From positions 186,001 through 250,000 of the forward strand of contig JBEWZL010000236.1 in assembly GCA_045837725.1 (NCBI GenBank): DNA of 64,000 bases, in the 5' to 3' direction. The notes beneath the pieces were generated by a model. That model did not search any database, had not been told where the DNA came from, and saw only the letters and a program-made list of their open reading frames with translations. The position numbers and the translations under genes are program-made. This document shows, piece by piece, positions 78 through 16,634 of the stretch. The DNA comes from Vermamoeba vermiformis (lineage: Eukaryota). Position 1 is the first letter of the stretch; every line of letters begins with the position of its first letter.

Positions 78-1504
78 TTATTGACCCAGCACGATAGATC
101 TGATTTGTTCTATAATCTTCAAGTGCACATCTAAGGCTAGACCATCAACTGAAGCTTCGTTCTTTTGCGTGCACCCATCGACAGCACCTATGTAGCAGTA
201 AGTATTTTGTTCATGAACAACGCACTGTAAATTGCCGCTTACCAGCCGCTACAATTGCATCAAGTAATTTAACTTCTTTTTCACTTGAAGGGAGCAATGA
301 GCCTAATTTGTCGCTTGGCACATCTAGAACGCGTTTGTTATCAACGGAAGGATCAATTACCATAAAAGGAAATAGCGTACCTTGGTGCTGCTCTTGGTAC
401 AACACTGCCAAGGCACCTGCTAGTGCATAGCCTGCAATGAATGAGTGTAAGTGACATGACACGTGTCACATGTCAAACATTAAGCGCACACGCACCTCCC
501 CAATTTGACACGCCGCACGTGATCAGATAATCAGTCGCGACGACAGTGCCAATTTTATCACCGTGCGGAATGAACAGCTTGACTGCCTCGTGCACTTTGC
601 CCTGGGAAATGTCAATTGATATTACACCGACTGATAGTGCCTGATTCTTACCATGCCTATCTCGTTGCCTCCTACATGTCATAATAACAATTGTTAATAT
701 GCAGTCTTGTCTACGGGTCTAACAAGCACTCACCATCGCCAATGCCAATCGTCTTGATTCCAAGCTCAGGATAGAGTTGTGCAGTCAAAAACAACTTGTC
801 AATCTTCGCGGTGTATTCACTGATGTTCATGCCTCTATTATAATCAAGTACATCAGTATTGTTGTTTGATCTAGAAAGTCAAAGTCACGTGCCTCATGTT
901 GTAGTAGTTTCCATCGCTAGCTGCTCCCAATCGTTCAATAGAGACCAAGCAATCAATTTTCTGATGGTGATGACGTCCATCCATATTTAATAATGTATCA
1001 ATAAACGGCTGTTCGTTCTCCATTGGGAATACAATCACGGGATCTATTTTGAGGCCACTTTCATTAACGCACTTTTGAAGCACTTCTTGATTTCGAACGT
1101 CTGTCAGTAATTGAACGTTCTTTCCGAGTACTTTTAACGCTTTAGCACTAATAAAACGGAATTAGAATATTGTACGTGAATTAAAAACAGATCCACCTGA
1201 GCGGAGTTCGACAACAATTTCGGAAAAATATTTTGCTTACATAGCAACAGCCCCTAATGGTCCGTCAGTTTCAGGATGGCCGCATTGAAAAATAAAAAAT
1301 CCGGTGACGATTAAAATATTTTTTGCTTCGAGCAATACTTTGGCAGCCCCTTCTACCTCACCAGTGAGGCTAATTTTGCCAATTCCTCTATTGCCTACAT
1401 TTTTGTTGATTAATTAAATGATAGTGGAGTCAGGAAAGCTTACCGATATCATTTTGGATCAAGGTTTCGATGTCTTTGATTTTCTTGTTCACTGTTGCGG
1501 TCAT
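78..1504 (-). CDS. DUF4392 / D-glutamate cyclase-like protein (multi-exon)
   Basis: Spliced exons give GNRGIGKL, PETDGPLGA, IERLGAASDGNYYNMR, IGIGDG, TDYLITCGVSNWGGYAL and DGCTQKNEASVDGL; GT-AG introns. Confidence 0.8.
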
Positions 1505-1606: not shown

Positions 1607-2833
1607 TCAGTCGCGGTGCTGTTTATTCAACAATGACAATCGATATTTGAGCGCATCTTTCTTCGAATACTTAGTCGCTGCAATGCCCATGTGTTGCGCC
1701 ACTAAGTGTTGTACACGGTTGGCAAATTGATCCGGATCCTCGGTCTCCTTCTTCTCCTGTTAGACGTATCAGCTACTATTATATAATTTAATATCCGATA
1801 CTTGCCTGAGGAGCTAACAATTCAATGTTGTAAATGTACAGTGGACTGAAGAACATCCACACAATCTCCTTGAATATCGATGAGCCCAACTTGCCCGGCA
1901 CGAGAGGCAGGCCCAACACATTGACTTTCAACGCGACAGGCAGCACAGTGAGGCCGAGTGAAAACAAGAACTTTTGATAGATCAGCAGCCCTATGCCATT
2001 CGTGTCCCAGCCTTCAGGGAAGTATACGAGCGGTCTTTTGCTTTGATTCAAGTGTTGCACGATGAATTCGCGCTGTTGTTGGCGCTTGTACTCTGTCGTT
2101 CATCATTAGCACGCCATTACATACAAAAAATTTTTGTCGTACCTTCGTGATGCGAATCGATCTTAATCGTGCCCATGATATTCGCCACAAAATCAATGAA
2201 CTTGCGCGAGATGACGTGTCCGTCAAAGAATCCACGGTCAATGAGCACATCGAGCGGTGGGTACAGCAGAAATGGAATGACATCTTGCTTGTGTCAGTCA
2301 CAGAGGAATGTTATTCAAGAGTGGCACGTACCAAAAGCAGTTCGATGATTAGAAGCCACTATGTACGGCTTCTTTAATGTCTTCAAAGTGTCACCGTTCT
2401 TAAACCTATCGTACGTTGTCAGATCCGAAAGCGATTTTCTACCGAACTGTTGTAATGGACTTCACATTACCTGCAATATAGACCAAACATTGCCAATATT
2501 ATTTTGCATATTCTTTGATGAAAGACAATGTCTACAAGGTTAGTGGTTAGCAAAATGCACGAGTGACAGTTTCATACTTGCATACCGGTGACGGGGATAC
2601 GGAGGGCGGTGCCAATAAATAAAATAGATAATAATATCGATAATAATACAAAGCGGGCGATTAATAAAGTGACGCCAACCGGAATATAATACAGAAGGAT
2701 CAAGCCCCGCCAAAAATTCAAAGGCTATTTGAATAATTAGTACCCAGGTGAGTTAAAATAAATGCAAATATAATTTTAAAAATAGAAAGAATATTATTAA
2801 AGACTTCTGGTGTAATAAATCTCACCTTAACAT
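1607..2833 (-). CDS. Lysophospholipid acyltransferase-family (AUP1-like) membrane protein, multi-exon
   Basis: ANHLTL, PLVYFPEGWDTNG, VLPVAL and FANRVQHLVAQHMGI motifs typical of PlsC-type/AUP1 proteins. Confidence 0.7.
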
Positions 2834-3074
2834 GGCTCGTAAAAAACAGATCTTGCAGTTGGCGTACGTCTGTCATTTTAAAGCGTGGCGATCATCAACA
2901 AATAATGTCTAACTATGTACATACACAAGAAGTAGTGATAACACTAAAATTTATTTTTGGTTCTAATGAATTGACAACACGTGTCCTAACAAACTAGGTG
3001 CAAGTTATTTTGTTGTTTAAGAAGAGTTAATGAGAGACAAGGTGTTTAGTCGCTCATGTGGACTGTTGGGGCGT

Positions 3075-4492
3075 TTAGAACGACAAGTCGTAGTCATCGC
3101 CGTCATCTTCTTCGACGTCAACGTTAGTATCTTGTTCGTCCATCGCAGTCAAGTCGAGCTTGTAGCGCAACAGACCGCCAAGGCCGCCAAGACCCTTCGT
3201 GAACTGGTCTCCGAGGGGCGAGTTGTCGCTGACGAGCTCAATCTTCGCACCGAAGTTGTGATAAGAGTCCATGAGCCAGTCCAACAAAGCACCTTCTTCT
3301 TCGACTTCCCAGTCAGCGTTGTCAGTGTTCTCAGTGTTGTTGTTGTTGTTCGTCGTGTCGGGATTGACGCACACGACACGAGTTTCACCGTTGGATTTGT
3401 TCTTGAGCTTGCGGCGGATGGTCGGCAAGTTGTCCCACACGATCAAGGTCTCAACAATACCGCTCTCAAGGGCCATCAAAGTGTCACGAGCACCAATGCA
3501 GTAGGGACCATCAGTGGCAATGGTCTCCATGAACTTGGAAAGCAGTTCTTTCTCGCGCACGAGCTTGACGCCCTTGAGCACGTCACTCGCGAGTTGGATC
3601 GTCTCGTTGAGTCCTGTCTCGCCATTGTATTGAATGTCGAGCACTTTGATCACCTTAGACTGAATGCGCTTGTCGAGGTACTGGGACTTGACGAACTCGC
3701 GCTTGAGGTCTCCAAAGCCTGCGACGATGAGGCCCTCGACGTTGGTCTTGTTGGTAGCAGGGTCGATGAAGTGCTTCACCGCTGCTTCGATCACGTCCTT
3801 CACGTACCAATCGCGCTTTTCTTCGCGAATTCGACGGAAGCGGTCGTGAGATTGACCTCCACGGCCGTGCTTCTTAGGCAGACTGACGTCCCACTTGACG
3901 AGAGTTTCGCGCGTGTCGCCGCAAATGACGTGCATGCTACACCCAGAACCATCCATTAGAATGATGCCAAAGCGTGCGTTGTCCTCCAACTGAGACTTAA
4001 GCGTCTCCGTGTGGAATTTGCTACCACAAAAGTAGAGATTGTGGGTTGTAGGCTTCAGAGGCTCCAAGGCAACGTTGATCCACTTGGATTTGCCAGCTTC
4101 GGTCGTATAATTGCCACAAAAGATGGCAAGTCCATTCGGAGGTGGCGCCTTATAGTATTTCAACTAAAATAAAATAATCAGTCACTGCGTAATTATTATT
4201 CGAATTACTAATTATTTAATAAAATCAAATTAAATTATCCGAGATGCTTACCTTTGCCAGGATGGACCGAATTGCATCCTGGACTGACTGCCTGTTAAAG
4301 ACGCGACTTGATGTTGTCAGCGGCGCCGTATTCGGAATTCAACTTGGTGGCCACCTTGCTGATCGAGCCACCGGCAGGGATGATAATCGAAAGCATGCTT
4401 GTGCCGCTTCCTTCCACGTTCTCAATGTCGTTGAGTAATCGTTTCAGGCGGAGTTTTTCTACTTCAGCGTTGCGAATAACAGATGAGGTCAT
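3075..4492 (-). CDS. ETF1: Eukaryotic release factor 1 (divergent eRF1). ORF1 4492-4298, +1 frameshift at CTT-TAA (4300-4295), shifted frame 4296-4252, intron 4251-4164, exon 2 4163-3075; 442 aa if shifted
   Basis: GTS (GSGTSMLSIIIP), NIKS (GAADNIKSRL), PPNGLAIFCG, YFCGSKF (YxCxxxF), KKHGRGGQS and QFTKGLGGLGGLLRYK. The frame is restored by skipping one nucleotide. Confidence 0.93.
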
Positions 4493-4680
4493 TTTCAGGT
4501 TTAGTTGTTGCGTTTGGTAGCTTTTGTAAAGCTTGAGGTTTGGTTGTTGCTTTGTATGAGCAGTTGGAAAAGGAAAAATGAAGAAGAAACTGTTTTTGTC
4601 CCTGCCTTTCTGCCCTATTTCTCAAAAGCAAAAACCAGCGTTCACTGAATTCCAACTATTTTCACGTGCGAGATATTTAC

Positions 4681-5484: not shown

Positions 5485-6240
5485 TTAGCCGATCGAGATG
5501 AATGACTTGAATTGACCACGCTGGTCGGCGACGGTTCCGTTGAAAGCAGTACCATAGAATGCGGCTAATGCGGCAAGTTGTGCTAGAGTTAAAGCGTCTG
5601 CCGCTACCAACGTTGGCGGGAAAAAAACCACCGGATTTGCAGCTTGTGGCAATAAACCCACTAGTTCGAGTATATTAGGTTCTACCATTAATCAAGCAAT
5701 AATGAAGTTAAACTCACTGTTGGGTCCAGCTACAGTCGAGGGCAAAGGGTACAGGACGCCTCGAGAAACGCTGATTGCATGTGCATTCCTTGCCCGTAAG
5801 GAAGGCAACTGAAGGCTGACCTGTAGGAGGGTTTGCATAGCCTGCTGGTTGTTTTGCACAACCTGCAGGGCGTTTTGCACAGCCTGCTGGTTGTTTTGCA
5901 CAACCTGCAGGGTATTTTGTATGGCGTTTATCTGCGCTAAAAGTTGCTGGCCCCAGAGGGGAGCTCCGGCTCCTGGATACGTCTGCTCGGCAGCTAAAAT
6001 TGTTAGTTGATGGAAGCGGATGTTATAACAGAAGATATTATATTACCTGCATTCTGTACAGCTGTTTTTCTTTTACTGACGGAGACGTACTCCGCATCAG
6101 TGACCAAATTCCCGTTAGCCGCTGACAAAAATTAACTTAATATTATCTCAATTGCTAAAATTAATCTGTTCTCGTATTAATTATTGTTAGTAATGTACCC
6201 GTTTATTTCTATTTTTACCGCGCGTGCGCGGAATTTATTG
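5485..6240 (-). CDS. Mug135-like coiled-coil protein (start not resolved)
   Basis: APLWGQQLLAQINAIQN, a Q/N heptad repeat, RARNAHA...LYPLP and FFPPTL...LAALAAFYG resemble fungal-type Mug135-like proteins; introns present. Confidence 0.5.
5839..5912. repeat. 42-bp-period tandem duplication in coding sequence
   Basis: agcctgctggttgttttgcacaacctgcaggg occurs at 5839 and 5881 and encodes LQVVQNNQQA twice. Confidence 0.9.
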
Positions 6241-11736: not shown

Positions 11737-14700
11737 ATGGGAGACACTGCCCACATAAGTCCCGAGCAAGCTAGTCAAGTGCTTAACTTGGCAAACGTCG
11801 ACGCTAATCTGATCGGCAAGTCCTTGATAGTTAAACAATTCAAATGGTCATGACTAACCGCACAAATTATAGACATACTTGCTCGAAAAGATGTAGTTAC
11901 TTTTGGCTCGCTTGTACGAGTAGGCTTGGAGTTAATTCGGGATCCAACGTAAGTTCAGAATAACAATTTTATTTTATTACGGGCATAAGAAATTATTGAT
12001 TATTTAGTTTATTGAACTCTAATCTTTACAGATAACAATATTATGAATTTGAAAAATTTGTTAATTAATCGAGATCTCGCCAGACTAGCACAAGAGACTG
12101 CTCCCCACACTATTAAATTATCGAATAAGGCCGTCAATATTATTAAAGATTTTGCCACGAGATTTCCCAGTAAGTACCAATAATTGACACGCCCGTGCTG
12201 GCCTCTAGTCTAATATAATCGTATTACAGCCATTTTGCCGCTAATTAAAGCCGGTCAATCCTCTCCCAAAGGTCACTTCATCTTTTGTTCCGACAGCGCA
12301 GTTATATCAGCCATCACAAAGTGGCGATTTGAACAATTACCACCGAGCATTATTGTACGCACTAAATACAGCTCATACACGTCATTATTAATCAACTACT
12401 TTACTTTAATTAGCTTCGAATGCAAGCACCACCAACGCCCCCAGCTGCAAAATTTACCCAACATGCACCGAGCACGGAAAATCAAGTACAGGAAGTAACC
12501 AGCACTGAGCCCAACAGTGATGGAGTGCAGAGTCAAAAGAAGAAAAAAGCACGACGAGGCAAAAAGAAAAAAGCAATGCCGAATGCACCAGACACAAGTC
12601 AAGACAGCGAAGATACAATTACGAGTTCAGCGAACACGGCCGATGAGAGCAACAAGTCAGCGGGCAATACAAACGTGTGGTTTCACAAGAACATTGAAAA
12701 TGTCAAAAAAGCAACGCCAACCAAGGCACCGCCGAAGTTAGGCAGTTCAAAGCCAAAACAACCACCTCCCAAGGCCAACACCACCACTAACAACAACAAA
12801 GCAGCTACTTCACCTGCCACAGCCAGTCCTCAGCTGGAGTCAAAAAGTACCCCGAGTCCAGCAAAGACGAGCACCATTCGCTACTCCGACATTCTCAAAG
12901 CACCGCCACCAAAGGTACGACATCAGCGTGCAAAAACTAGTATCTAACCTTTCGTCACCAGAAATCAACTCCACCACCTCCTGCTGCTGCTCCAAAGGCC
13001 ATTGCAAAAGCTCCTAGGGCTCCTCCAAAAGAAGCCACAGCCGCTCCTCCGAAAGCGCAGCCTAAGAGAAAGAAACGCGAGCCGATATTGCTTGGCGATA
13101 TTGTCATCAAAGAGGTACGAATGAAACCGTAACACAAATGTGAGCCTAACTAGTACATTGCAGCAAGAGGCAAAGAAACTGCCTGCAGCCAAGAAGAATA
13201 TACAGCCGCCAAAGAACAAAGCCCCTCCGAGCGCAGTTCTCACGATGAACACAGCGACAGATGCGGTCATTGTCAAGCGAAGTAAGGTGCGCGAGACACC
13301 GAAGCCGAAGAAGTTTAGTCGTCTGAAGAAATTGATTCTGATTGAACGTGCTGAGAAGTGGAAGTCGCGTAATACCGCAGCACAAGCGACACAAAACATC
13401 GATAGTAATGAAGACGCTGTGAAAAGAGATGACACGAAGGAAGATAGCGAGCACGAAGATATTGATGAACTGTCGGACGAGGTACTCAGATAAGCCCGTA
13501 TCTCACTGATAGTTTAATTAACACTCGCTTGTATTCAGGACAAAGATGCAAATTCCAATGTGAACAACACGAATGTAAATAATGAAGCAGAAACAAAACC
13601 CAAAATTACCAAAGTGAAGAAAGTTCCGAACAAGTTTCTCATCAGAGAGTGAGTCGCCATCATACCTCTCGTATATCCATATTTTATTAACCACCGATTA
13701 GATATTGCGACCAAATTATCACCGATCAACTCAACAGCAAGATTATCGCGTTATTGACCAAATTGCGGGAACTACAAACTAAGATGAAACAAAGGGACGC
13801 TAAGAAAGTACGTTAGCAAGCTCGCTTCGTCGAACAGTCCTAACTTTGTACAGGCTGCAATGAAAAGACGATTTGTAGTCGGACTGCGAGAGGTGGCGCG
13901 AAGTGTCAAAGTGTCACAAGTCAAGCTGATCATCTTAGCCCCAGACATCGAAGAAAGTAGTGCCCCAGGTACGCATACTGAGCCTATTTATCTCCGAAAC
14001 TAATTCCTCCGCAGAAAGTCTTGATGACCGCGTTGCGGAGATTCTTGAAGGAGCACGTGAGATGAGTGTCTTGTGCGTGTTTGGACTAAATAGGAAGAAA
14101 CTTGGAGCAGCGTTGGGCTTCAAATTGCGTATGAGCGTCGTTGGTCTATCGTATATAGATGGTAAGGATTGCTTACGTCGCTTACAGCTGTTGACATGTG
14201 TTGCAGGTGCCAATGAGCTGTACAATGATCTCGTGGAGTGTGCCGTCAAGAGCCGCATTCTGTTTGCCTTGCAACGAAAAGTACTCGAGCGCCAGGCTGA
14301 ATTACGAGGAACTGAATTAATTGTACCGAAATTCGAAGCTACAGGTCATCGAGATGAAGGTAAGGACAACACGGGACTAGATCTGGATGCACAATTGTTA
14401 ACTAGCAATACAGACACTCAAAAATCGAAGAACAAAATCCTGTTTACGATGGCAAAGTACAAAAATGAAGAGAAGCTGCCTGACTATCAAAAGTTCACCA
14501 CCGACAAGCTGGTAGATCTGTTACACGACGGACGATCGAAGCAAAAGAACAGCTTGACTCTGTTCGTGCAAGACCTTGATAAGAACAAAATACACCTTTT
14601 TGAAGAATTATCGCCAGCTACCAAAGTCATTGAGCTGAAAGTAAGCCATAACCGCCGGATATCCGAATCCCAATCTCTTCTCAATTCGGAATATTTCATT

Positions 14701-15496: not shown

Positions 15497-16634
15497 ATGT
15501 AAGTATTCTCAAATTTGGCGCGAATGCCAGCGAAGCATCTGAATCAAATCCCAAAACAGAAAAATTAATTGCCATTAATTAAATAGGTCGGCTATCCAAG
15601 ATTTCCTCCTTGATACTGGTGTTAACCTTCCCCCAGCACAAGAGTGCTTTGGTTTTGAAGGCGTCGAAAAGAAGCTCGAAATCGACTTCAAGAAGATTAA
15701 AAACAACAAGCTTGGCTTGCGCGTCATTCCTCGCGCTTGCTGGGAAGAAGTACTCGATATTGTCAAATGCAAAATCCTCAACATGACCAAGAACGCGTAC
15801 TTCGATGCTTATGTCTTATCCGAATCTAGCTTGTTTGTCTATCCATACAAAGTCATGCTCAAGACTTGCGGCACAACTGTTACCCTTCGCTGCCTTGACA
15901 GACTCATGGAAATTGTGAAGGAGCACGTTCCCGAGACCTCTATCGAATTCTGCTTCTTCAGTCGACGCAATCTTCTCTTCCCCGATCGACAGATCTTCCC
16001 TCACACTAGCTTCGAAGACGAAGTTGGCTACTTGAACAAAGCTTTTGGTACTGATGGAGAGGCCTACGTCTTTGGCCCCAACAACGCTCATCAATGGCAC
16101 TTGTACTTTGTCGACTACAGCGACAAGACCGAGATCACAGACGACGTGACTTTGGAGATTATGATGACTGACCTTGACCGCACTGTCATGGAACAGTTCT
16201 ACAAATCTGCCGAAGATATTTCTGCTAAAGAAATCACTCGTTCTGCCGGTATCTCGAATCTGATCCCTGGTCAAGTCACTGACGAGTACATGTTCGACCC
16301 CTGTGGCTATTCGATGAACGGTTTGTTTGGTGATGTCTACTCCACCATTCACATCACTCCTGAGGCTCACTGCTCATTCGTCTCGTTCGAAACCAACATC
16401 AAGGCTGCTGATTACACCAAGGTCCTCAACGATGTAATTGCTGCCTTCAAGCCTGGAAGATTCACCGTATCTCTCTTTGCCGACAGCGGCGCTCTCTGTG
16501 GTCCTTCAACCTTCAATGCTTTCAACCGCGAAGTTGGCGGTTTTACTTGCAAATCCAATGCCTACCACGAGTTCGAAGGACAATACAACGTTACGGTTAG
16601 CAACTATGTTGCCCGTGACTTTATTGGCGCTTAA
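15497..16634 (+). CDS. AMD1: S-adenosylmethionine decarboxylase proenzyme; start codon split AT|G by intron 15499-15586
   Basis: FEGVEKKLEIDF, the YVLSESSLFV autocleavage site, LKTCGTT, FDPCGYSMNG and TIHITPE. The only in-frame start is made by splicing. Confidence 0.95.

What the first reader, a model, noticed from the sequence alone, without database searches (positions are those of the whole stretch)
4252..4300. eRF1 gene with an RF2-like CUU-UAA-C +1 frameshift site: candidate autoregulatory recoding in a eukaryotic release factor
Seen: on the minus strand the eRF1 ORF reads ...AAC ATC AAG TCG CGT CTT TAA C AGG CAG TCA GTC, stopping after NIKSRL (65 aa). Skipping one base gives AAC AGG CAG TCA GTC CAG GAT GCA ATT (NRQSVQDAI), matching the eRF1 segment after NIKS (consensus-like NRLSVLGAI). 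The shifted frame runs in phase across intron 4251-4164 into an intact 362-codon exon with YxCxxxF and GGQ, giving 442 aa. No other lesion is visible. Simple readthrough does not work, because frame 0 hits another TAA just after the splice. Known: bacterial prfB (RF2) uses CUU-UGA-C, where peptidyl-tRNA-Leu slips from CUU to UUU when release factor is scarce, giving negative feedback. Recoded eRF1 genes are known in giant viruses, while cellular eRF1 autoregulation is known through readthrough/NMD. Inference: this is a termination-sensing +1 frameshift switch in an intron-containing nuclear eRF1, convergent with RF2. Caveat: a one-base error in a T3 run, or a young pseudogene, would look the same, and a decayed gene lies next door.
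Basis: partly seen in the sequence, partly recalled or inferred. Interest (0 to 1): 0.95.

Follow-up and report, generated by a model that had tools for sequence, protein, structure and literature searches.

The report
Frameshift-dependent eRF1 gene in an amoeba
A free-living amoeba carries an expressed, intron-containing gene for the protein that ends translation, and the whole protein can be made only if the ribosome slips one base forward at an internal stop codon, a self-sensing device so far described only in bacteria and giant viruses.

Summary
On the minus strand, ORF1 (4492-4298) ends NIKSRL at CTT-TAA-C (4300-4294). The +1 frame continues NRQSVQDAIRSILAK, crosses an 88-nt GT..AG intron (4251-4164) and reads a 362-codon exon with YxCxxxF and GGQ.

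It is not an assembly error. Contigs from 4 runs of 4 studies join 4163 to 4252, so the intron is spliced, and none shows an indel at the site.

It is not a pseudogene. A diverged strain differs from ORF1 by 12 synonymous and 1 non-synonymous codon in frame 0.

The same NTT-TAA-C shift at the same codon occurs in:
- 3 of 80 environmental eRF1 loci;
- 3 giant-virus contigs;
- 5 of 5 ORF1-type proteins, all ending NIKSRL;
- 10 of 150 cluster representatives, as a protein signature.

Neighbouring genes place the window in Vermamoeba vermiformis or a close relative (98% identity to its SAM decarboxylase).

Best reading: a conserved programmed +1 "shifty-stop" frameshift in a nuclear eRF1. It uses the heptamer published for Megavirus eRF1, and the logic of bacterial RF2. 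Feedback on termination activity is inferred, not shown. Whether the amoeba also has an ordinary eRF1 could not be tested.

This scan had already found the device in giant viruses, but not in a cellular genome. Six literature searches found no such report.

The parts
4493..4549 (-). 5' untranslated region, at least this long; it contains no upstream ATG
   Evidence: The RNA contig of run X15 reaches 4549 (table 8). Sequence read.
4298..4492 (-). ORF1 in frame 0: 65 codons from ATG to Leu65. It encodes the start of the eRF1 N domain with the GTS and NIKS motifs (..GSGTSMLSIIIP..EYGAADNIKSRL).
   Evidence: The 95%-identical ORF1 homologue P0444 aligns to residues 11-66 of canonical eRF1 P0008 at 45% identity. 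Against the X17 strain there are 12 synonymous and 1 non-synonymous codon changes in frame 0, versus 3/11 and 0/13 in the other two frames.
4294..4300 (-). Shift heptamer CTT TAA C: P-site Leu codon CUU, in-frame UAA (4297-4295), then C
   Evidence: No indel at this site in the RNA contigs of 4 runs (table 4). The same NTT-TAA-C sits at the same codon in L019, L020, L047 and in L089, L090, L091.
4252..4296 (-). Rest of exon 1 in the +1 frame: 15 codons, NRQSVQDAIRSILAK
   Evidence: It matches canonical NR(L/Q)SV(L/Q)xAI. It is continuous with exon 2 in P0001.
4164..4251 (-). Spliceosomal intron, 88 nt, GT..AG, 22% G+C
   Evidence: Contigs of X15, X3, X4 and X17 all join 4163 to 4252, skipping 88 nt with ends CT..AC on the + strand (table 5). 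G+C.
3075..4163 (-). Exon 2: 362 codons plus the terminal TAA (3077-3075, followed by A). It covers the rest of the N domain (YFCGSKF), the M domain (GGQ) and the C domain with mini-domain and acidic tail.
   Evidence: 48% identity to canonical eRF1 over 343 aa with 4 gaps. The best PDB matches are eRF1 chains at E 1e-98 to 1e-100.

Best explanation
This is a nuclear, intron-containing, expressed eRF1 gene of the amoeba Vermamoeba vermiformis or a close relative. Its full-length 442-aa product requires a programmed +1 ribosomal frameshift at CUU-UAA-C.

Inferred mechanism. The ribosome holds peptidyl-tRNA-Leu on CUU in the P site, with UAA in the A site followed by C, a weak termination context.
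- If release-factor activity is high, termination wins and only a 65-residue peptide is made.
- If it is low, the tRNA re-pairs from CUU to UUU, AAC (Asn) is decoded, and translation continues into the remaining 377 codons.
Output of full-length factor would thus fall as termination activity rises. This is the logic of bacterial RF2 and of the eRF1 genes of mimivirus relatives.

Shown here: the site is real, transcribed, spliced and conserved, and both flanks are under selection in their respective frames.

Inferred: the shift itself, its dependence on eRF1 level, and the likely origin of the site. In canonical genes the two codons read V-N (GTN AAY), and one extra T between GTT and AAC creates the site.

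The gene belongs to a diverse family of eRF1 genes that are recoded at this codon. The family also occurs in giant-virus contigs, so gene exchange between amoebae and giant viruses is likely. The direction of transfer is unresolved.
For: 1. Real and expressed. Of 24 listed runs, 20 hold the stretch, from 10 studies. All 4 runs laid come from 4 different studies, and 2 of them are on record as RNA. Each has a contig that splices out exactly 4164-4251. None shows an indel at 4294-4300; the only indels listed are at 3041/3042.

2. Selection. Against the diverged X17 contigs, ORF1 shows 12 synonymous and 1 non-synonymous codon changes in frame 0, versus 3/11 and 0/13 in the other frames. Exon 2 shows 13/6, versus 4/15 and 0/20.

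3. Conservation at DNA level.
- L019: TCG CGG GTT TAA C AGA.
- L020: TCC CGC GTT TAA C AGG.
- L047: TCG CGC GTT TAA C AGG.
These three are 45-48% identical to exon 2. tblastn puts the frame change between canonical residues 66 and 67. The giant-virus contigs L089, L090 and L091 carry GTT TAA C at the same codon.

4. Conservation at protein level.
- 5 of 5 short ORF1-type proteins end ..EYGAADNIKSRL. Three of them lie on contigs of the same lengths as the matching ORF2-type proteins.
- P0001, which is 92% identical and spliced, and P0007, at 47%, start with the +1-frame read-through signature SSR(V/A)FNRQSV.
- 10 of 150 cluster representatives carry that signature.

5. Phylogeny. The window sits in a 100*-supported clade of 6 rows. 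The named cellular eRF1s sit in a separate clade. A tree that holds all 16 shift-bearing rows together has a log-likelihood 12.9 units higher than the free tree (p-AU 0.73).

6. Functional motifs are intact: GTS, NIKS, YxCxxxF, GGQ, the mini-domain and the acidic tail.

7. Stop contexts. The gene's own stop is UAA-A, while the internal one is UAA-C.

8. Precedent. CUU UAA C is the Megavirus eRF1 shift motif. +1 shifting at the Mimivirus CUU UAG C site was shown in E. coli (PMC3521657, passages read).

9. Host identity. The SAM decarboxylase gene 11 kb away is 98% identical to the EukProt entry for Vermamoeba vermiformis. Other neighbours are ordinary cellular genes.
Against: - There is no direct evidence of translation across the site. 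No ribosome profiling or peptide data were available.
- All RNA evidence comes from assembled contigs. These drop rare variants, so a minority RNA species lacking one T cannot be excluded.
- In one search, 33 further substitutions were not listed. The synonymous/non-synonymous counts therefore rest on the listed subset.
- No conserved stimulatory RNA structure lies downstream. z-scores were near 0 in 5 of 6 sequences, and only one window segment reached z = -2.4. Efficiency would rest on the heptamer alone.
- UAA is usually an efficient stop (recalled, from no call).
- Feedback by eRF1 level is argued by analogy only.
- The gene evolves much faster than ordinary eRF1: its sister lineage is only 57-61% identical in ORF2. 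It may therefore not be the cell's main release factor.
- The backbone of the tree is unresolved, and no archaeal outgroup was available.
Confidence: 0.8

Rival explanations
1. Assembly or sequencing error: one extra T in a T3 run of an otherwise continuous gene.
For: The interruption is a single base in a short homopolymer.
Against: Contigs from 4 runs of 4 separate studies cover the site and show no indel. One of them is a strain with 16 differences across 245 nt. The same extra base is present in relatives at 45-92% identity.
Confidence: 0.01
2. Young pseudogene: a recently broken spare copy that is still transcribed.
For: A single lesion. The gene is much more diverged from canonical eRF1 than is usual, at 45-49% identity.
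Against: Purifying selection acts on both sides of the break in the correct frames. The break is conserved at the same codon in lineages below 50% identity and in the 57-61% identical sister lineage. There are no other lesions and all catalytic and decoding motifs are intact.
Confidence: 0.03
3. Two separate products without frameshifting: the 65-residue ORF1 peptide, plus an N-terminally truncated protein made by reinitiation or internal initiation in the +1 frame.
For: Gene callers predict ORF2 products that start at internal Met or Leu codons (P0002, P0255, P0273). Termination at UAA must occur part of the time.
Against: The first in-frame ATG of the +1 frame lies at exon-2 codon 69. The stretch before it (NRQSV.., YFCGSKF) is nevertheless conserved as protein and aligns to the canonical N domain. 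ORF1 and ORF2 together form exactly one colinear eRF1, with no residue missing or duplicated at the junction. A factor without NIKS and GTS could not read stop codons, by established knowledge of eRF1.
Confidence: 0.05
4. Correction at the RNA level: transcriptional slippage or editing removes one U, so an in-frame mRNA is translated normally.
For: Contigs cannot exclude a minor corrected RNA species (caveats).
Against: All four spliced RNA contigs keep TTT. A run of three T is far shorter than known slippage tracts (recalled, from no call). The conserved feature is NTT-TAA-C rather than a long homopolymer.
Confidence: 0.04
5. The programmed frameshift is real, but the gene is a virus-derived accessory copy. 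It would have been captured from a giant virus, or be part of an old viral insertion, and would sit beside an ordinary, uninterrupted host eRF1. In that case it is not the cell's own termination governor. This is a sub-case of the best explanation, and the figure given is conditional on that explanation.
For: The same shift site is found in giant-virus contigs. The gene lies outside the clade of named cellular eRF1s. The family evolves fast and is very diverse. Some members are fused to a translational GTPase. Acanthamoeba is reported to have a canonical eRF1 plus a divergent paralog (PMC3521657, passage read). V. vermiformis hosts many giant viruses (paper listings).
Against: The best IMG/VR matches are only 41% identical or less. 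None of the 23 loci from the second protein scan is shifted at this site. The gene has a spliceosomal intron, a full mini-domain and an acidic tail, which viral eRF1s are reported to lack (PMC6582330, passage read). It has cellular neighbours, and no viral hallmark gene was seen among the 12 window ORFs scanned. The presence of a canonical copy could not be tested, because no genome is held.
Confidence: 0.6

Closest known systems
Recoded class-I release factor of Mimiviridae (Mimivirus R726, Megavirus mg280; Jeudy et al. 2012, PMC3521657; extended to Klosneuviruses, Tupanviruses and Bodo saltans virus by Zinoviev et al. 2019, PMC6582330). I read passages of both papers.
   Same: An eRF1-type factor whose reading frame is broken by a shifty stop. 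The heptamer CUU UAA C is identical to the Megavirus motif. NIKS, YxCxxxF and GGQ are kept. An autoregulatory reading has been proposed.
   Different: - This gene is nuclear, has a spliced intron and lies among amoebal genes.
- It has no upstream UGA-C readthrough stop.
- It keeps the mini-domain and acidic C-terminal tail, which the papers say viral eRF1s lack.
- Its shift lies directly after NIKSR(L/V). Three divergent giant-virus contigs in IMG/VR (L006-L008; lineage not determined) shift about 35 codons further on.
- I could not see the papers' figures or supplements to place the published sites.
Bacterial prfB (RF2) programmed +1 frameshift at CUU UGA C
   Same: The gene for a release factor holds an early in-frame stop that its own product reads. 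The P-site codon is CUU followed by U, with C after the stop. A short ORF1 is followed by the bulk of the protein in the +1 frame.
   Different: - The protein family is unrelated (RF2 versus eRF1).
- The stop is UAA rather than UGA.
- There is no Shine-Dalgarno stimulator, which has no eukaryotic counterpart.
- The site is at codon 66 rather than about 26.
- Feedback is not demonstrated here.
Plant eRF1-1 autoregulation by stop-codon readthrough and nonsense-mediated decay (PMC5397192; search listing and abstract only)
   Same: A cellular eukaryotic eRF1 whose expression senses termination efficiency.
   Different: The plant circuit uses readthrough of the normal stop plus NMD. It does not use a frameshift inside the coding sequence.
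Shifty-stop +1 frameshifting in Euplotes (PMC4759687, PMC10235951; listings and abstracts only)
   Same: A +1 shift at a stop codon in the A site of a eukaryotic ribosome, without an evident RNA structure.
   Different: In Euplotes the phenomenon is genome-wide and non-regulatory, typically at AAA-UAA/UAG. Here it is a single gene-specific site, conserved across lineages that otherwise use UAA as a stop.

Membership tests
eRF1 (eukaryotic/archaeal class-I release factor) | Three-domain architecture (Pfam eRF1_1, eRF1_2, eRF1_3) | tested here: met
   eRF1_2 at 9.3e-38 and eRF1_3 at 9.3e-26. eRF1_1 is only weak on the 65-aa ORF1 (E 0.0019, below cut-off). ORF1-type homologues carry precomputed PF03463, and P0444 aligns to residues 11-66 of canonical eRF1.
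eRF1 (eukaryotic/archaeal class-I release factor) | Decoding and catalytic motifs: GTS, NIKS, YxCxxxF, GGQ | tested here: met
   GSGTSM, ADNIKSRL, YFCGSKF and GRGGQS were read. GGQ is invariant in alignments A1 and A2.
eRF1 (eukaryotic/archaeal class-I release factor) | Placement among cellular eukaryotic eRF1 orthologues | tested here: not met
   Only 45-49% identity to canonical eRF1. The gene lies outside the 98*-supported clade that holds the animal, fungal, plant, Corallochytrium and Leptophrys sequences. The trees are unrooted and their backbone is open.
RF2-type (prfB) autoregulatory +1 frameshift | Early in-frame stop read by the gene's own product, with the rest of the protein in the +1 frame | tested here: met
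   UAA at codon 66 and 377 codons in the +1 frame. That eRF1 reads UAA is established knowledge.
RF2-type (prfB) autoregulatory +1 frameshift | Slippery P-site codon that can re-pair in +1 (CUU then U), and a weak stop context (C after the stop) | tested here: met
   CTT TAA C in the window. GTT TAA C in 6 other loci.
RF2-type (prfB) autoregulatory +1 frameshift | Upstream Shine-Dalgarno-like stimulator | tested here: not met
   Not applicable to 80S ribosomes. The three codons upstream vary at synonymous sites (TCG/TCC/TCA, CGT/CGG/CGC). No conserved downstream structure either.
RF2-type (prfB) autoregulatory +1 frameshift | Shift frequency falls as release-factor level rises | not testable with these tools
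   This needs reporter assays or ribosome profiling.
Mimiviridae-type recoded eRF1 | Shifty stop CUU UAR C inside an eRF1 homologue | tested here: met
   The window has CTT TAA C. The motifs quoted in PMC3521657 are CUU UAG C and CUU UAA C.
Mimiviridae-type recoded eRF1 | Additional upstream UGA-C readthrough stop | tested here: not met
   ORF1 is open from the ATG at 4492 to the shift site.
Mimiviridae-type recoded eRF1 | Encoded in a giant-virus genome | tested here: not met
   The gene has a spliced GT..AG intron. Its neighbours are a P-type ATPase with introns, an RWP-RK protein, and a SAM decarboxylase 98% identical to that of V. vermiformis.
Mimiviridae-type recoded eRF1 | Loss of the mini-domain and a C-terminal truncation | tested here: not met
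   The gene aligns to canonical eRF1 through residues 320-422 with one 1-residue gap, and ends in an acidic tail.

The most novel reading that the evidence does not exclude
The frameshift-dependent gene is the main, or only, release factor of Vermamoeba and its relatives. A free-living eukaryote would then govern translation termination by an RF2-like +1 frameshift. The recoded eRF1 genes of giant viruses would descend from such amoebal genes (or the reverse), which makes the device an old, shared amoeba-virus trait rather than a viral oddity.
Probability: 0.25. Interest if true: 0.92.

Novelty: new variant of a known kind. Interest (0 to 1): 0.78.

Why it matters
Autoregulation of a release factor through a frameshift at its own stop codon is a textbook bacterial mechanism. 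In the eukaryotic world it has been reported only for giant viruses, where it was seen as a viral peculiarity.

An expressed, spliced, conserved nuclear gene with the same device shows that 80S ribosomes of a free-living amoeba are expected to use it. This has four consequences:
- It gives a culturable system (V. vermiformis) in which to test termination-sensing frameshifting in a eukaryotic cell.
- It bears on where giant viruses obtained their translation genes.
- It warns that such genes are being annotated as fragments. Every relative found here is recorded as a split or truncated protein.
- It shows that a bare heptamer (NUU UAA C), without a detectable RNA structure, has been kept for a very long time.

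Tried and rejected
- Own genome: none is held. A second, ordinary eRF1 in the same organism could therefore not be sought. This is the main gap.
- Four-letter code CTTT=L across exon 1: an earlier in-frame CTTT also shifted, so the translation was useless. The frames were read separately instead.
- Metagenome scan: it returned mostly canonical eRF1.
- Earlier-findings look-ups by place and by sequence: nothing.
- ESM Atlas: only generic eRF1 clusters, which did not inform origin.
- Downstream RNA structure: no consistent signal.
- GC3: 0.62-0.68 for eRF1 against 0.44-0.56 for neighbours. This is not discriminating, because GC3 in V. vermiformis is reported to range widely (PMC11702301, passage read).
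- Backbone of the eRF1 tree: unresolved in both FastTree and IQ-TREE. L089 has a very long branch, and FastTree joined it to other long branches. I draw no conclusion on the direction of transfer.
- Variant genetic code with UAA as sense: rejected. Frame 0 meets another TAA after splicing, the homology continues in +1, and the gene's own stop is TAA.
- The listing of cluster members on the one promising EukProt hit (P0080): it proved to be Leptophrys, not Vermamoeba.
Full report
**1. The observation**

- The ATG lies at 4492 and is followed by 65 codons ending ..EYGAADNIKSRL.
- CTT is at 4300-4298, TAA at 4297-4295 and C at 4294.
- Reading on from A4296 gives NRQSVQDAIRSILAK, down to 4252.
- Next come gtaagc...ttttag (4251-4164) and an open frame of 362 codons (4163-3078). 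Its terminal TAA lies at 3077-3075.
- After splicing, frame 0 runs into ..GTT GAA ATA CTA TAA, so readthrough cannot rescue the protein.

Pfam finds eRF1 domains 2 and 3 in exon 2, at 9.3e-38 and 9.3e-26. It finds a weak domain-1 match in the 65-residue ORF1, at E 0.0019, below the curated cut-off. Exon 2 is 48% identical to a canonical eRF1 over 343 residues with four gaps, and the alignment includes the mini-domain. The best solved structures are eRF1 chains.

The conceptual junction NIKSRL|NRQSV is colinear with canonical NIKSRV|NRLSV. No residue is lost or gained.

**2. Not an error, and expressed**

The look-up of sequencing runs listed 24 runs. Twenty of them hold the stretch, from 10 studies. 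I laid four runs from four studies, two of which are on record as RNA.
- Each has a contig that joins 4163 to 4252, skipping 88 bases with CT..AC ends on the + strand. The intron is therefore removed and these are mRNA-derived contigs.
- The contigs cover the shift site: X15 4252-4549, X3 4252-4537, X17 4252-4496 and X4 4277-4435.
- The table of inserted or deleted letters lists only 3041/3042 in the 3' UTR.

The extra T is thus present in spliced RNA of four independent data sets. One of them, X17, is a strain with 16 differences in exon 1.

Two limits apply. These are contigs, which drop rare variants. And 33 further substitutions were not listed.

**3. Under selection on both sides**

I took the X17 differences that one search lists and classified them by frame.

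| Region | True frame (syn/non-syn) | Other two frames |
|---|---|---|
| ORF1, 13 changed codons | 12/1 (the one change is D>E) | 3/11 and 0/13 |
| Exon 2 | 13/6 | 4/15 and 0/20 |

ORF1 is therefore read in frame 0 and exon 2 in the +1 frame. A pseudogene would not behave like this.

**4. The same site in relatives**

Protein search with exon 2:
- The nearest relatives are 92, 92 and 86% identical, followed by a group at 57-58%.
- Everything else, including all named organisms, is at 49% or less.
- P0001 (92%, on a 1.5-kb contig without the intron) begins VPRTTSSRVFNRQSVQDAIRSILAKLKYYK. That is the +1 frame read backwards through the site, so its DNA must read ..AAG TCG CGT NTT TAA C.
- P0007 (47%) begins ..KSSRAFNRQSVQEAL, the same signature.

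DNA of environmental relatives:
- Of 80 environmental eRF1 loci, 71 read NIKSRVNR continuously.
- Of the other nine, four are continuous by tblastn and two are cut short at the 5' end.
- Three (L019, L020, L047) change frame exactly between canonical residues 66 and 67.
- Their DNA reads TCG CGG GTT TAA C AGA, TCC CGC GTT TAA C AGG and TCG CGC GTT TAA C AGG.
- Synonymous positions differ while NTT TAA C is kept.

ORF1-type proteins:
- A search with the 65-residue ORF1 found five short proteins, at 95, 91, 75, 75 and 73% identity. All five end ..EYGAADNIKSRL.
- Three lie on contigs of 32,898, 29,387 and 193,577 bases. These are the same lengths as the contigs that hold the 57-61% identical ORF2-type proteins. 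The sister lineage is therefore split at the same codon.

Wider sampling: among the 150 best cluster representatives of a profile search over 1.84 billion proteins, 10 carry the read-through signature and 41 are continuous. The other 99 cannot be judged, because they are truncated or have variant motifs.

**5. Giant viruses**

Earlier notes of this scan pointed to giant-virus eRF1 genes that need a +1 shift, and to Jeudy et al. 2012.

From the literature:
- Passages of PMC3521657 report a UGA-C readthrough plus a frameshift at CUU UAG C (Mimivirus) or CUU UAA C (Megavirus). They also report +1 shifting shown in E. coli, and an Acanthamoeba paralog without internal stops.
- Passages of PMC6582330 extend this to Klosneuviruses, Tupanviruses and Bodo saltans virus. 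[quoted passage not shown]

From IMG/VR:
- A DNA pattern of the site found three giant-virus contigs (L089, L090, L091) with NIKSRV GTT TAA C at the same codon.
- Two protein-based scans found 8 and 23 viral loci, partly the same contigs. None of the 23 is shifted at this site.
- L006-L008 shift at another place, after ..AGSWV or ..AGQYV, near canonical residue 100.
- The best viral match to the window's protein is 41% identical.

**6. Whose genome**

The single-exon SAM decarboxylase gene at 15579-16634 is 98% identical to a protein whose EukProt accession names Vermamoeba vermiformis. All other named hits are dictyostelids at 47-50%.

The neighbours are a P-type ATPase with introns, an RWP-RK protein, a RING protein, a TPR protein and a D-glutamate-cyclase-like fragment. 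I saw no viral hallmark gene among the 12 window ORFs I scanned.

Members of the eRF1 and SAM decarboxylase clusters both list a 608,359-base contig. This suggests the same linkage in an independent assembly. No whole genome is held.

**7. Phylogeny**

- FastTree on 164 rows puts the window in a starred 28-row group with no continuous canonical sequence.
- IQ-TREE (LG+C20, quick search, 71 rows, restricted to the part downstream of the site) gives a 100*-supported clade of the window with P0001, P0003, P0004, P0272 and P0273.
- The same tree gives a separate 98*-supported clade that holds the animal, fungal, plant, Corallochytrium and Leptophrys sequences. Its backbone is open.
- Holding all 16 shift-bearing rows on one side against the 28 continuous rows gives a tree with a log-likelihood 12.9 units higher than the free search found (p-AU 0.73). 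A single origin of the site is therefore not rejected.
- There is no outgroup and several branches are long, so I do not infer the direction of transfer.

**8. Mechanism**

Three features are conserved:
- a P-site codon NUU (CUU or GUU);
- UAA in the A site;
- C as the next base.

After a +1 slip the P-site tRNA faces UUU and keeps two or three of its pairs. The new A-site codon AAC encodes the conserved Asn67. Because that residue must be Asn (AAY), the 0-frame stop can only be UAA, and the base after it can only be a pyrimidine.

Canonical genes read V-N at these two codons. One extra T between GTT and AAC would therefore create the site. This origin is my inference.

The gene's true stop is UAA-A, whereas the internal one is UAA-C. 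I found no conserved RNA structure downstream, and the upstream codons vary at synonymous positions.

By analogy with RF2 and with the published viral genes, a slow release reaction at UAA-C would favour the slip, so full-length eRF1 would be made when termination activity is low. This feedback is inferred and not shown.

**9. Novelty**

Six literature searches and passages of five papers gave no report of a cellular eukaryotic eRF1 that needs a frameshift. The library does not hold most subscription journals, and supplements were closed.

The kind of device is known from RF2 and from the eRF1 of mimivirus relatives. What is new is its setting, a nuclear, spliced, conserved gene of a free-living amoeba, together with the wide environmental family recoded at this codon.

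The main open point is whether the amoeba also has an ordinary eRF1. I put that at roughly 70-75%, for three reasons:
- this family evolves fast;
- it is linked to viruses;
- Acanthamoeba is reported to carry two copies.

Noticed in passing
L020:108-2858 (+), and protein P0278: Two members of the recoded family continue without a stop into an EF-Tu/eEF1A-type GTPase (Pfam GTP_EFTU, D2, D3, GTP-eEF1A_C). They are 917 and 815 residues long. This is an eRF1 fused to an eRF3/EF1-family GTPase in one reading frame. In L020 the +1 shift site sits at the front of the gene.
   Followed up: partly
L019:~150-170, L020:~185-205, L047:1-22: These shifted relatives have QIKS in place of the near-universal NIKS stop-codon recognition motif (..AAQIKSRV). 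P0007's signature implies the same.
   Followed up: no
L006:2950-3010, L008:3000-3030: Three divergent giant-virus eRF1 genes (L006, L007, L008) change frame at a second place, after ..AGSWV or ..AGQYV near canonical residue 100. At least two different recoding positions therefore exist among viral eRF1 genes.
   Followed up: partly
L101, L106, L107-L109 (around 2455 in each): These giant-virus eRF1 genes read NIKSRV NRQSVQ(D/S/T)A continuously, like the window's NRQSVQDA. They may be the nearest unshifted viral relatives.
   Followed up: no
window 12001-14000: Strong strand asymmetry, with AT skew 0.27 and GC skew -0.11, unlike the rest of the window.
   Followed up: no
window 5692-6042 (-): An open frame with a glutamine-rich repeat (..QNNQQAVQNALQVVQNNQQAMQ..) and no Pfam match lies between eRF1 and the P-type ATPase gene. 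The opposite strand is also open here.
   Followed up: no
window 871-1161 (-) and 1788-2099 (-): Exon-like pieces of a D-glutamate-cyclase-like gene lie downstream of eRF1 (Pfam GLUCM-like_C, 3.2e-14). I did not check whether it is intact.
   Followed up: no
window 3041-3042: Strains in runs X4 and X17 carry small insertions (TC and A) in the 3' UTR of the eRF1 mRNA.
   Followed up: no
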